From the sequence record MZ502379.1: a DNA stretch of 64,000 bases, one strand, 5' to 3'. Below, piece by piece: positions 817-3,063 of this stretch. Under the pieces are notes generated by a model that was not told where the DNA came from, did not search any database, and was given only the letters and a program-made list of their open reading frames with translations. Source of the stretch: Escherichia phage vB_EcoM_Shinka. Position 1 is the first letter of the stretch. Every line of letters begins with the position of its first letter. The translations under genes were made by a program, and so were the position numbers.

Positions 817-950
817 CGTTTTGTGAAAAAATTTTTTAAAAAGTTTTAGGGAATTCTAGGGTAGGGAGGGGCAATTAAAAGATAGGATAATATATTATAA
901 AGGGTAGAAACTAAATGATGCCTAGAGAGGCCCGGAAAGGCCTAGATACC

Positions 951-978
951 AAAAAGCCCCAACCTTTTGGTCGGGGCT
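951..978 (-). terminator. rho-independent terminator hairpin (minus strand)
   Basis: minus-strand stem AGCCCCGACC/GGTTGGGGCT with 4-nt loop followed by TTTTT; immediately downstream of CDS 986..1459. Confidence 0.55.
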
Positions 979-985
979 AAGAATG

Positions 986-1459
986 TTATTTGATTTGTTT
1001 AGCAGACCAAATGCGGTCTTTAATAATTTTTTGGATGTCTTCAACATACTCAAGAGAGTGAGCATGTGGGTTATCTTTGAAACTATAAGCACGAGCTAAC
1101 TTTTGACCTTCAGTTTTGATTACTAAAAGCTCTTTAAGGATAGCTTCATATCTGGAGATAATTCCTTTAACGATATTTTTCTCTTGTGTGACTTTAGGAT
1201 CTGCTTTAGGAGCAGGTTTACCTGAAGCCTTTGCAAAAGCAGCTCCAGTAGCAACTAAACTTTTCCAAGCCATACTAACTGCATTCCCTGTAAATCCTTC
1301 GGCTTTCATATCACGAGCAAATTGGAATCGTGATTCATCGGAAGCATCTTTATAGGAATATTTACCCGCGGCAATGGCTGCTTTTGCGACAGCTTGAATT
1401 TCGGTGCTAGATGCTTCATTTAACACCGCTTCATTTAAAAATTGAGCATATGATTTCAT
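986..1459 (-). CDS. internal-protein-like protein with capsid-targeting-type N-terminus (157 aa)
   Basis: N-terminus MKSYAQFLNEA resembles the MKTYQEFIAEA-type capsid targeting sequence of T4 internal proteins; late TATAAATA promoter upstream; Ala/Lys-rich. Confidence 0.5.
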   Translation of the reverse strand: MKSYAQFLNEAVLNEASSTEIQAVAKAAIAAGKYSYKDASDESRFQFARDMKAEGFTGNAVSMAWKSLVATGAAFAKASGKPAPKADPKVTQEKNIVKGIISRYEAILKELLVIKTEGQKLARAYSFKDNPHAHSLEYVEDIQKIIKDRIWSAKQIK

Positions 1460-1495: not shown

Positions 1496-1503
1496 TATTT
1501 ATA
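1496..1503 (-). promoter_or_regulatory. late promoter TATAAATA (minus strand)
   Basis: exact TATAAATA on minus strand ~35 nt upstream of ATG at 1459. Confidence 0.45.
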
Positions 1504-1505
1504 CT

Positions 1506-1533
1506 AAAAAGCCCCAACCTTTCGGTCGGGGCT
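1506..1533 (-). terminator. rho-independent terminator hairpin (minus strand), repeat of 951..978
   Basis: same stem sequence as 951..978 (one loop difference) followed by TTTTT on minus strand. Confidence 0.55.
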
Positions 1534-1584
1534 AAGCCTTGCGGCAACCTTGTCGGGGTTCCACCTGCTAAGGCAAGTGTTTGT

Positions 1585-1676
1585 ACGAAACGCCGGGATT
1601 CGAACCCGGTTATTAAGTAGTTGACGCTACTCAATATTTTTAAAAGGCCATATCTCGACCATATCCGAACGTTCCG
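1585..1676 (-). ncRNA. tRNA-like structured RNA (non-canonical; possible stable-RNA species)
   Basis: canonical T-arm (CCGGG-TTCGAAT-CCCGG) and 7-bp acceptor stem (one G-U) but a 10-bp hairpin with 6-nt loop where the anticodon arm should be; no encoded CCA. Confidence 0.35.
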
Positions 1677-1850
1677 TCAAAAACGCTACTCGGCTTATGG
1701 CAAAGATATTTCCTCGAATCGATAATTCGGTGCGCCGTTTCTGCTGTGATATAAGGGGGCATTAACAAAAACATAAAGATTTATTAATGCCAGTCCTTAA
1801 ACAGGGAACATCAGTCCGACGACTTGCCGGTAGCGACCCGGCTTCTTGTC

Positions 1851-1926
1851 TGGTCGAGGCAGTAGGGATCGAACCTACGACCCAGGACTTAGAAGGTCCT
1901 TGCTCTTCCTTCTGAGCTATGCCTCG
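1851..1926 (-). tRNA. tRNA-Arg (anticodon TCT)
   Basis: 76 nt cloverleaf built by hand: 7-bp acceptor, anticodon loop CTTCTAA, T-loop TTCGATC, CCA encoded. Confidence 0.8.
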
Positions 1927-2009: not shown

Positions 2010-2096
2010 TGGTGGGGAGTGATGGAGTCGAACCACCCGAGTCGCAATGACAATGGATTTACAGTCCACACCGCTACCTCTACGGGATAACTCCCC
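2010..2096 (-). tRNA. tRNA-Tyr (anticodon GTA), type II
   Basis: 87 nt; perfect 7-bp acceptor GGGGAGT/ACTCCCC, anticodon loop CTGTAAA, long variable arm, T-loop TTCGACT, CCA encoded. Confidence 0.7.
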
Positions 2097-2775: not shown

Positions 2776-3063
2776 TTACCATTTATGATAATACATATTT
2801 ACGATGCATTCAAGACCCAAAGGATTCTTGAAAATATCATATTTAAGAGGACCTTTTTCTGTTTCAATAAAGAAATCAAAATTTACTGTATTAAATTTAC
2901 GGTCTTCCTTCACTAATTTAACTTGAGAAGATGAACGGTCAACATAAACCTTTTCAACTTCAAAACATGTTAAAATGCCATAATCATCAATCAAGGCTTT
3001 AGCTGCTTCTTGATCATATTTATATCCATTTTCAATGGACGATACTTTAGCATAAAGAATCAT
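2776..3063 (-). CDS. hypothetical protein (95 aa)
   Basis: ATG-initiated ORF, no recognisable motif. Confidence 0.5.
   Translation of the reverse strand: MILYAKVSSIENGYKYDQEAAKALIDDYGILTCFEVEKVYVDRSSSQVKLVKEDRKFNTVNFDFFIETEKGPLKYDIFKNPLGLECIVNMYYHKW

What the first reader, a model, noticed from the sequence alone, without database searches (positions are those of the whole stretch)
1585..1850. Non-canonical tRNA-like RNA and a 175-nt non-coding gap downstream of tRNA-Arg
At 1585..1676 (minus strand) there is a perfect T-arm and a 7-bp acceptor stem, but the anticodon arm is replaced by a 10-bp hairpin with a 6-nt loop, and no CCA is encoded. The interval 1677..1850 has no ORF and contains a GC hairpin (GCCGG-N7-CCGGC near 1824..1840). 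T4 is reported to encode two stable RNAs of unknown function next to tRNA-Arg; these may be their counterparts, or a decayed tRNA.
Basis: seen in the sequence. Interest (0 to 1): 0.45.

Follow-up and report, generated by a model that had tools for sequence, protein, structure and literature searches.

The report
T4 stable RNAs species 1 and 2

Summary
Window 1585-1850 (minus strand) is not a new element. It is the ortholog pair of phage T4 rnaD (species 2 RNA, window 1849->1729) and rnaC (species 1 RNA, window 1721->1585). rnaC is 137/139 identical to T4 rnaC; rnaD is 99% identical to the annotated RB3 rnaD. Both lie between tRNA-Arg and the operon terminator (1533-1506).

The proposed 7-bp acceptor stem (ACGGAAC/GUUUCGU) is not the conserved pairing. 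Across at least 9 genera of T-even-like phages the 3' strand covaries with the true 5' end, 45 nt further upstream.

The whole 137-nt RNA is a four-way junction:
- a terminal stem stacked next to a canonical T arm;
- a ~70-nt long arm;
- a 10-bp hairpin.

The two distal loops (UUGACG and CGUCAA) are exact complements, with compensatory changes in two lineages, so they probably form a kissing loop. The 3' tail is U-ACA here and U-CCA in Marfavirus, i.e. tRNA-like.

No Rfam family covers either RNA. Function remains unknown. I infer a tRNA-processed tRNA mimic. The gene is already known; interest is modest.

The parts
1851..1926 (-). tRNA-Arg(UCU), last tRNA of the 10-gene cluster (context); CCA encoded, ends at 1851
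   Evidence: ARAGORN; Rfam tRNA 65.8 bits
1729..1849 (-). rnaD (species 2 RNA) ortholog; encoded end is ...GCGCACC, followed by G at 1728 where T4 and RB3 have A (ACCA)
   Evidence: 99.2% identical to RB3 rnaD 'species II RNA' AJ884578; aligned to T4 rnaD; fold z=-3.0
   Evidence: Predicted in every variant. Outer pair covaries: A-U 8, G-C 6, G-U 2
1758..1791 (-). rnaD variable central hairpin (AU-rich version shared with RB3)
   Evidence: At least four unrelated sequence versions occupy this position between invariant flanks in related phages, and each folds as a hairpin
1722..1728 (-). 7-nt spacer GAAUUAU between rnaD and rnaC; U at -1 of rnaC
   Evidence: In other genera the same short spacer follows the CCA of a real tRNA
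1585..1721 (-). rnaC (species 1 RNA) ortholog, C1 to U73 (137 nt, the boundaries used in X03016; T4 RefSeq uses 1722->1584)
   Evidence: 137/139 identical to T4 rnaC; annotations; covariance model 176 bits; fold z=-4.9
1715..1721 (-). rnaC terminal (acceptor-like) stem, 5' strand CGAUUCG; pairs with 1592-1586 and has two central U.U mismatches
   Evidence: Pair 3 covaries (A-U 11, G-C 17). The U.U positions become U-A and C-G in Tegunavirus
1645..1714 (-). rnaC long arm (AGG...CCU, about 27 bp with bulges).
   Evidence: On the CM-fitted alignment A5, 23 of the arm's 27 pairs show both-side changes and its five helices are 85-100% paired. RNAalifold recovers the arm independently
1675..1680 (-). 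Apical loop UUGACG of the long arm; proposed kissing partner of 1626-1621
   Evidence: Exact complement of CGUCAA in all 27 distinct homologs. Compensatory in Tegunavirus (UUGAUG/CAUCAA) and Marfavirus (UUGGCG/CGCCAA)
1611..1636 (-). rnaC 10-bp hairpin with 6-nt loop CGUCAA (1626-1621)
   Evidence: 9 of 10 pairs show both-side changes
1593..1609 (-). rnaC T arm: 5-bp stem plus loop UUCGAAU, contiguous with the terminal-stem 3' strand as in tRNA
   Evidence: 2 of 5 pairs are compensatory and 99% of cells are paired
1582..1592 (-). Terminal-stem 3' strand CGUUUCG (1592-1586), U73 (1585), then ACA (1584-1582) in place of CCA
   Evidence: The homologous tail is UCCA in Marfavirus and UUCA in Tegunavirus
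1536..1581 (-). 3' trailer with hairpin CACUUGC-CUUA-GCAGGUG (1579-1562); presumably removed during maturation
   Evidence: Conserved with T4 and RB3; fold. Removal is inferred, not shown
1506..1533 (-). Intrinsic terminator of the tRNA/rnaD/rnaC operon
   Evidence: Terminator scan: 10-bp stem, 7 G-C pairs, U tract. Annotated as terminator in Aplg8, X03016 and G9062

Best explanation
The interval encodes the orthologs of bacteriophage T4 species 2 RNA (rnaD, window 1849->1729) and species 1 RNA (rnaC, window 1721->1585). They are the last two genes of the phage tRNA operon, followed by a trailer and an intrinsic terminator (1533-1506).

Shown: rnaC is a 137-nt four-way junction.
- Its true 5' end (CGAUUCG) pairs with its 3' end (CGUUUCG) to make a 7-position acceptor-like stem. 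This stem is contiguous with a canonical 5-bp T arm, which is the geometry of a tRNA 'top half'.
- The 3' tail is U-ACA here and U-CCA in one genus.
- In place of the D and anticodon arms there is a ~70-nt long arm and a 10-bp hairpin. Their terminal loops (UUGACG and CGUCAA) are complementary and covary, so they most likely form a 6-bp kissing interaction.

Shown: rnaD is a separate structured RNA with a 5' hairpin and a long interrupted stem, ending in ...CACC(A).

Inferred: both RNAs are cut out of the polycistronic tRNA precursor by the host tRNA-maturation machinery. RNase P would cut 5' of C1721, and the 3' end would be trimmed and repaired by the CCA-adding enzyme. That would explain why they accumulate as stable RNAs.

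Inferred: rnaC cannot decode. It most likely acts in trans as a tRNA mimic whose top half engages a tRNA-binding host or phage protein. The partner is unknown.
For: Identity:
- Base-for-base alignment to T4 rnaD/rnaC, with rnaC 137/139 identical.
- 99.2% identity to the annotated RB3 'species II RNA', and the same tRNA order as RB3.
- Annotated rnaC/rnaD in Aplg8, T4 RefSeq and X03016.

rnaC structure:
- The full-length MFE is the four-way junction, -50.6 kcal/mol, z=-4.9.
- MAFFT plus RNAalifold on 13 diverse homologs recovers it, with 26 of 39 pairs compensatory.
- On the 28-sequence alignment fitted to the covariance model, 93.7% of cells pair and 37 of 49 pairs change on both sides. Slid controls give about 40% paired and at most 13 such pairs.
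- Terminal stem: pair 3 is A-U in 11 sequences and G-C in 17. The two U.U positions become U-A and C-G in Tegunavirus.

Kissing loop: 100% complementary in 27 sequences, with 2 pairs changed on both sides in two separate genera. Duplex energy is about -5.5 to -7.5 kcal/mol.

tRNA-like 3' end: UACA, UUCA or UCCA follows the stem. X03016 ends the species 1 gene at U73 and species 2 at ...ACCA.

tRNA-operon context: in Karamvirus, Gelderlandvirus, Moonvirus and an Erwinia phage, rnaC sits 5-8 nt from the flanking tRNA genes (Trp or Met upstream, Gly downstream).

Transcript: northern blot and RNA-seq detect RNAC and RNAD as late RNAs in T4 (PMC9697503). They are described as part of a ~1.75-kb tRNA precursor that terminates after species I (PMC2330249).

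Constraint: homologs occur in Tequatro-, Mosig-, Gapriver-, Karam-, Moon-, Kanagawa-, Gelderland-, Teguna- and Marfavirus.
Against: - Function is not shown by anything here. Reviews and recent papers state it is unknown.
- RNase P cleavage, CCA addition and T-loop modification are inferred from geometry and from my recollection of the 1970s-80s literature, which I could not read here.
- T4 RefSeq puts the 5' end one base upstream (U-1) and the 3' end at ...GUA. That does not fit a simple RNase P plus CCA picture.
- The terminal stem carries two U.U mismatches in all lineages but one.
- One lineage has a non-canonical T loop (UGCAUGC).
- TH41 keeps rnaD but lacks rnaC, so rnaC is dispensable in at least one natural phage.
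- The kissing interaction rests on two compensatory events. Whether it is intra- or intermolecular cannot be decided: the long arm is about 27 bp against 10 bp for the hairpin, so it would have to bend sharply.
- The A5 counts come from an alignment fitted to the model.
Confidence: 0.8

Rival explanations
1. A 93-nt non-canonical or decayed tRNA at 1677-1585, with acceptor stem ACGGAAC/GUUUCGU, a T arm, and an anticodon arm replaced by the 10-bp hairpin. The upstream 175 nt would be an unrelated spacer.
For: In isolation the 93-nt segment folds this way (-30.1 kcal/mol, z=-2.9). Within Tequatrovirus the 8-bp complementarity is perfect apart from one G.U. ARAGORN and GenBank call the equivalent segment tRNA-Met, tRNA-Phe or tRNA-OTHER in PG7, KKP_3262 and G9062.
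Against: The stem has no both-side change. There is an A.C mismatch in 9 of 22 sequences and three mismatches in Tegunavirus. The 5' strand is replaced by unrelated sequence in the divergent homologs, where it pairs inside the long arm. In the full-length RNA its pair probability is ~0 and forcing it costs 13.7 kcal/mol. The annotated mature RNA starts 45 nt upstream. The Rfam tRNA model does not reach gathering score in any lineage.
Confidence: 0.04
2. A cis-acting element only. rnaC, rnaD and the trailer would serve as processing, stability or termination signals for the tRNA operon (for example entry sites for RNases, or 3' protection). The stable products would be by-products with no trans function.
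For: They are co-transcribed with the tRNAs and lie at the 3' end of the operon before the terminator in Tequatrovirus (PMC2330249). The tRNA-like top half would make rnaC a processing substrate. TH41 lacks rnaC.
Against: In Karam-, Gelderland- and Moonvirus, rnaC sits in the middle of the cluster between two tRNAs, so it is not a 3'-end element. A processing signal would not need a conserved kissing-loop pair, an invariant linker, or a long arm preserved by compensatory changes across 9 genera. In RB69 and PEi20 it lies among ORFs with no adjacent tRNA.
Confidence: 0.12
3. Short protein-coding genes. Many GenBank records annotate one or two 'hypothetical protein' CDSs over this interval, for example the 44-aa ORF at 1640-1774.
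For: ORFs of 25-53 aa exist on both strands. Several phage records carry CDS annotations here.
Against: Substitutions follow base-pair covariation rather than codon structure. The ORF spans the rnaD/rnaC boundary and has a different end in T4: GGUUGAG gives a stop where the window has GGUCGAG. It cannot exist where rnaC follows a tRNA. The products are experimentally detected as stable RNAs in T4.
Confidence: 0.02
4. Host-interaction RNAs. rnaD and/or rnaC would be sensed by, or would counteract, a strain-specific host factor such as a defence system. This is a specific version of the trans-acting idea.
For: [quoted passage not shown] The rnaD central hairpin is swapped among at least four unrelated versions between invariant flanks, a pattern typical of loci under diversifying pressure.
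Against: This is one study with no reconstruction of the SNP. A SNP shared by all lines could be standing variation in the ancestral stock. No defence system is implicated. Nothing links rnaC to it. E. coli genomes contain no related sequence.
Confidence: 0.15

Closest known systems
Bacteriophage T4 species 1 RNA (rnaC) and species 2 RNA (rnaD); also annotated in RB3, Aplg8, RB59 and ATK47
   Same: Same genes. rnaC is 137/139 identical to T4 rnaC, and rnaD is 99% identical to RB3 rnaD. Both have the same position after tRNA-Arg, the same trailer and the same terminator.
   Different: The rnaD central hairpin is the RB3 version, not the T4 version. rnaD ends ACC-G instead of ACCA. A 555-bp ORF cassette follows the terminator here.
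Canonical tRNA (Rfam RF00005), especially class II tRNAs with a long variable arm
   Same: A 7-position terminal stem made by the 5' and 3' ends and contiguous with a 5-bp T stem. T loop UUCGAAU. A single-stranded 3' tail of N-(C/A/U)-C-A. Location inside tRNA gene clusters with 5-8-nt spacers. U usually at position -1.
   Different: No D arm and no 5-bp/7-nt anticodon arm. 137 nt long. Two U.U mismatches in the terminal stem. CCA not encoded here. Scores below threshold with ARAGORN and Rfam. No anticodon, so it cannot decode.
tmRNA tRNA-like domain
   Same: An acceptor/T-arm top half with a CCA-type end, carrying a large non-tRNA body in place of the anticodon domain. Matured by tRNA enzymes (established knowledge for tmRNA).
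   Different: ARAGORN predicts no tag reading frame. There is no G3:U70: pair 3 is A-U or G-C. There is no pseudoknot series, and the RNA is much smaller. ARAGORN finds no tmRNA, and the only Rfam tmRNA hit is a 10-bit match to the T loop.
Bacterial and phage Y-RNA-like YrlA RNAs and viral tRNA-like structures (tRNA mimics)
   Same: Non-decoding RNAs that imitate part of a tRNA and are thought to work by engaging tRNA-binding proteins.
   Different: No Rfam match to any such family. In YrlA the tRNA-like module is internal and the ends form the Ro-binding stem. Here the ends form the acceptor-like stem.
Loop-loop 'kissing' complexes (ColE1 RNA I/RNA II, HIV-1 TAR-TAR*, DIS)
   Same: Two hairpin loops with 6 fully complementary nucleotides. 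TAR-TAR* shows that 6-nt loops can pair completely (established knowledge).
   Different: Here both loops belong to one RNA. Whether the contact is intramolecular or dimer-forming is untested.

Membership tests
T4 species 1 RNA (rnaC) | Sequence homology to the T4 rnaC gene over its full length | tested here: met
   137/139 identical; covariance model 176 bits
T4 species 1 RNA (rnaC) | Position in the tRNA operon, downstream of rnaD and upstream of the operon terminator | tested here: met
T4 species 1 RNA (rnaC) | Accumulates as a stable ~140-nt transcript in infected cells | not testable with these tools
   Shown for T4 by northern blot (PMC9697503), not for this phage
T4 species 2 RNA (rnaD) | Sequence homology to annotated rnaD, immediately 3' of tRNA-Arg | tested here: met
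   99.2% identical to RB3 rnaD; about 86% identical to T4 with an indel-rich central hairpin
Canonical tRNA | 7-bp acceptor stem formed by the 5' and 3' termini | tested here: inconclusive
   Seven positions, of which 5 are Watson-Crick and 2 are U.U. All 7 pair in Tegunavirus. Covariation at pair 3
Canonical tRNA | T arm: 5-bp stem plus 7-nt loop UUCRANY, contiguous with the acceptor 3' strand | tested here: met
Canonical tRNA | D arm, and a 5-bp anticodon stem with a 7-nt loop and an anticodon | tested here: not met
   Replaced by a 70-nt long arm and a 10-bp hairpin with a 6-nt loop
Canonical tRNA | Recognised by tRNA predictors or the covariance model at threshold | tested here: not met
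   ARAGORN: none. Rfam tRNA: no hit at gathering score in the window or in 9 homologous loci. Best match is tRNA-Sec, 17 bits, E=1.4
Canonical tRNA | 3' N73-CCA end (encoded or added) | tested here: inconclusive
   Encoded as UACA here, UCCA in Marfavirus and UUCA in Tegunavirus. Post-transcriptional CCA addition is not testable here
tmRNA | Tag-peptide reading frame, G3:U70, pseudoknots | tested here: not met
   ARAGORN finds no tmRNA. Pair 3 is A-U or G-C
Any curated Rfam family (4227 models) | Score at or above the gathering threshold | tested here: not met
   Only the ten tRNAs pass in the window. Nothing above noise in 1400-1950

The most novel reading that the evidence does not exclude
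rnaC is the founding member of an uncurated RNA family conserved across at least 9 genera of T-even-like phages and absent from Rfam. In this reading it is a CCA-tailed tRNA mimic whose non-tRNA body is locked by a covarying 6-bp kissing loop. It acts in trans on a tRNA-binding host or phage factor, for example as a decoy for a tRNA-directed defence or as a modulator of a synthetase, EF-Tu or the CCA enzyme. rnaD would be a rapidly diversifying partner RNA that tunes host range.
Probability: 0.2. Interest if true: 0.7.

Novelty: already known. Interest (0 to 1): 0.35.

Why it matters
The element itself is ordinary for a T4-like phage and has been annotated since the 1970s-80s. It still matters for three reasons.

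- Species 1 and 2 RNAs are among the oldest unexplained products of a model phage, and reviews still list their role as unknown.
- The comparative analysis replaces an intuitive but wrong tRNA-like fold with a covariation-supported architecture. It also uncovers a loop-loop complementarity with two compensatory events and shows that the family spans many genera. That yields precise mutants to test: loop swaps and top-half changes.
- The RNAs are widely unannotated (e.g. RB69) or misannotated as tRNA-Met, tRNA-Phe, tRNA-OTHER or hypothetical proteins. A curated covariance model would clean up hundreds of phage genomes.

Tried and rejected
- Rfam at gathering and permissive thresholds: nothing but the true tRNAs and noise.
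- ARAGORN: no call in the window. Its 95-nt 'tRNA-Met' call in PG7 has no credible anticodon stem, so I rejected it.
- Exact-pattern scans of IMG/VR and JGI metagenomes: mostly the same lineages. The loosened pattern GAGTAG-N-CGTTCGGNT gave 120 chance loci with no true homolog by covariance search.
- E. coli complete genomes: no related sequence.
- Reading the 10-bp hairpin as a class-II variable arm and GGUC/GGCC (or UCGG/UCGA) as anticodon or D arms: rejected, because those nucleotides covary with the 5' leader instead.
- Looking for a tRNA-like terminal stem or T arm in rnaD: none. Only the ACC(A) tail is tRNA-like.
- Primary 1970s-80s literature (Paddock & Abelson; Mazzara, Plunkett & McClain; Broida & Abelson; Pragai & Apirion) and Miller et al. 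2003: not held in the library. My recollections of RNase III/E/P processing and of the 140-nt RNA length are therefore unverified.
- Pfam and PHROGs on the neighbouring ORFs: uninformative.

Full report
**What is at the coordinates**

The window is a T4-like (Tequatrovirus) genome. On the minus strand, ten tRNA genes run from 2678 to 1851 in the order Gln-Leu-Gly-Pro-Ser-Thr-Met-Tyr-Asn-Arg. This is the order found in phage RB3. The finding covers the 266 nt that follow tRNA-Arg.

BLAST against phage records found about 800 T-even-type genomes holding this stretch. Some of them annotate it as 'rnaD, species 2 RNA' and 'rnaC, species 1 RNA'. The same annotation appears in T4 RefSeq (rnaD 71053-71171, rnaC 70908-71046), in the RB3 cluster record and in the original T4 tRNA-region record X03016.

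Pairwise mapping gives these coordinates:
- rnaC is window 1722->1584 with RefSeq boundaries, 137/139 identical to T4.
- rnaD is about 1849->1729 and 99.2% identical to RB3 rnaD.

A trailer (1581-1536) and a strong intrinsic terminator (1533-1506) follow. A late-promoter motif lies upstream of the cluster at 3017-3024.

**Checking the observation**

These features are all present:
- the T arm at 1609-1593;
- the 10-bp hairpin with a 6-nt loop at 1636-1611;
- the lack of an encoded CCA;
- the GC hairpin at 1842-1826.

No tRNA predictor or Rfam family claims the region. The folds are better than shuffled controls, with z from -2.9 to -6.6.

'No ORF' is not strictly true. A 44-aa ORF runs 1640-1774. 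It straddles the two RNA genes, ends differently in T4, and is impossible in genera where rnaC follows a tRNA.

**The fold**

It is not what evolution preserves.

I collected homologs in three steps:
- BLAST with successively more distant queries;
- pattern scans of viral and metagenome contigs;
- a covariance model, R1, which found copies in nine genera: Tequatro-, Mosig- (unannotated in RB69), Gapriver-, Karam-, Moon-, Kanagawa-, Gelderland-, Teguna- and Marfavirus.

Every full-length sequence folds into the same four-way junction:
- The real 5' end (CGAUUCG, 1721-1715) pairs with the 3' end (CGUUUCG, 1592-1586).
- AGG/CCU opens a ~70-nt long arm (1714-1645).
- An 8-9-nt A/U linker leads to the 10-bp hairpin.
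- One A leads to the T arm, which runs straight into the terminal-stem 3' strand, as in tRNA.

MAFFT plus RNAalifold on 13 diverse sequences recovers this structure independently, with 26 of 39 pairs showing compensatory double changes. On the model-fitted 28-sequence alignment, 93.7% of cells pair and 37 of 49 pairs change on both sides. Slid controls give about 40% paired and at most 13 such pairs.

- It has no compensatory change.
- It has an A.C mismatch in 9 of 22 sequences and three mismatches in Tegunavirus.
- Its 5' strand is simply the 3' side of the long arm's apical stem. That stem stays 98-100% paired and changes completely in sequence in the distant homologs.
- Forcing it in the full-length RNA costs 13.7 kcal/mol.

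The terminal stem, by contrast, covaries: pair 3 is A-U in 11 sequences and G-C in 17. Its two U.U positions become U-A and C-G in Tegunavirus.

**A loop-loop interaction**

The apical loop of the long arm (UUGACG, 1680-1675) is the exact complement of the hairpin loop (CGUCAA, 1626-1621). This holds in all 27 distinct homologs. It is kept by double changes in two separate genera: UUGAUG/CAUCAA in Tegunavirus and UUGGCG/CGCCAA in Marfavirus. The duplex is worth about -5.5 to -7.5 kcal/mol.

I read this as a 6-bp kissing contact. Arm lengths leave two possibilities open:
- Intramolecular ring. About 20 bp of proximal long arm roughly match 10 + 6 + 7 bp of hairpin, kiss and apical stem. This would need a sharp bend at the conserved 3-4-nt bulge.
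- Dimer formation, with each loop pairing to the other molecule.

I could not check whether the old literature noted this pairing.

**tRNA likeness**

The terminal stem plus T arm reproduces the tRNA top half. The tail after the stem is U-ACA here, U-UCA in Tegunavirus and a genuine U-CCA in Marfavirus. X03016 ends the species 1 gene at U73 (137 nt) and species 2 at ...GCGCACCA.

In Karam-, Gelderland-, Moonvirus and an Erwinia phage, rnaC sits between tRNA-Trp or tRNA-Met and tRNA-Gly with 5-8-nt spacers. Position -1 is usually U.

These facts support, but do not prove, maturation by RNase P and by 3' trimming plus CCA addition. There is no D arm, anticodon arm or anticodon, so it is not a tRNA. 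Three GenBank records nonetheless call it tRNA-Met, tRNA-Phe or tRNA-OTHER.

**rnaD**

rnaD is a different kind of RNA:
- a 5' hairpin whose outer pair covaries;
- an invariant closing stem GUCGUCG/CGGCG-AC;
- a central hairpin that exists in at least four unrelated sequence versions between invariant flanks;
- a tail ACC(A), or ACC-G here.

I found it only in Tequatro-, Mosig- and Gaprivervirus. TH41 has rnaD without rnaC, so the two are separable.

**Function**

Papers from 2010, 2022 and 2025 all state that the roles of RNAC and RNAD are unknown. Northern and RNA-seq data class them as late RNAs.

The one functional hint comes from phage BW-1. A single SNP in its rnaD appeared in all lines adapted to host ECOR34, alongside a large gain in virulence. 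The SNP was not reconstructed in a clean background.

My best inference is that rnaC is a tRNA-processed, non-decoding tRNA mimic that acts in trans through its top half. The kissing-locked body would provide specificity or stability. Each is weighed in the rival-explanations section.

**Verdict**

The proposed fold is wrong in one important respect. Novelty: already known. Interest is modest. What is added here is a covariation-backed structure, a candidate tertiary contact, the family's breadth, and its absence from Rfam.

Noticed in passing
window 946-981 and 1501-1536; ORF 986-1459 (minus); TATAAATA at 1496-1503 (minus): The operon terminator is duplicated as a 36-nt direct repeat, 94% identical. 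The two copies flank a 555-bp insert that is absent from T4 and RB3. The insert carries a T4 late-promoter motif and a 157-aa ORF (phrog_2280, no Pfam hit). It looks like a small cassette inserted at the terminator.
   Followed up: partly
L046 19156-19423 (RB69 NC_004928, about 74155-74422): RB69 RefSeq has intact rnaD and rnaC (171.7 bits with model R1) in a stretch where no RNA gene is annotated; the 3' part of rnaD runs a few bases into ORF150c. Here they follow an ORF rather than a tRNA.
   Followed up: partly
L003 1554-1648 (PG7), L006 1247-1342 (KKP_3262), L008 651-746 (G9062); many other records: The 3' domain of rnaC is annotated as tRNA-Met, tRNA-Phe or tRNA-OTHER in these three records. 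In many other genomes 'hypothetical protein' CDSs are laid over rnaC and rnaD. This is systematic misannotation.
   Followed up: yes
L005 883-994 (Escherichia virus TH41): This Gaprivervirus keeps a variant rnaD with a compensated, extended inner helix (GCCUG/CAGGC) but has no rnaC. Instead there is about 100 nt of other sequence, a late-promoter motif and an ORF before the usual trailer and terminator.
   Followed up: partly
rnaD central hairpin, window 1758-1791; L011, L031, L004, L005: The middle of rnaD is replaced by at least four unrelated hairpin sequences between invariant 5' and 3' modules. This is a cassette-like pattern.
   Followed up: partly
L009, L021, L022, L176 (Kanagawavirus-mime-like): In this lineage the rnaC T loop is UGCAUGC instead of UUCGAAU, while the stem and the rest of the RNA are kept. 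The canonical T loop is therefore not indispensable.
   Followed up: no
window 1536-1581 (minus): The trailer between rnaC and the terminator contains CCCCGACAAGGUUG, a partial copy of the terminator stem CCCCGACCGAAAGGUUGGGG, plus a 7-bp hairpin. Its role is unknown, though it could be a processing site.
   Followed up: no
window 1671-1686 vs 1585-1593 (minus): In Tequatrovirus the 5' strand of the long arm's apical stem (GCGUUUUUG) closely resembles the terminal 3' strand (GCGUUUCGU). It is lineage-specific and could allow an alternative precursor conformation.
   Followed up: partly
window 2015-2094 (minus): tRNA-Tyr only just passes the Rfam tRNA threshold (30.2 bits against 29), although ARAGORN calls it normally.
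   Followed up: no
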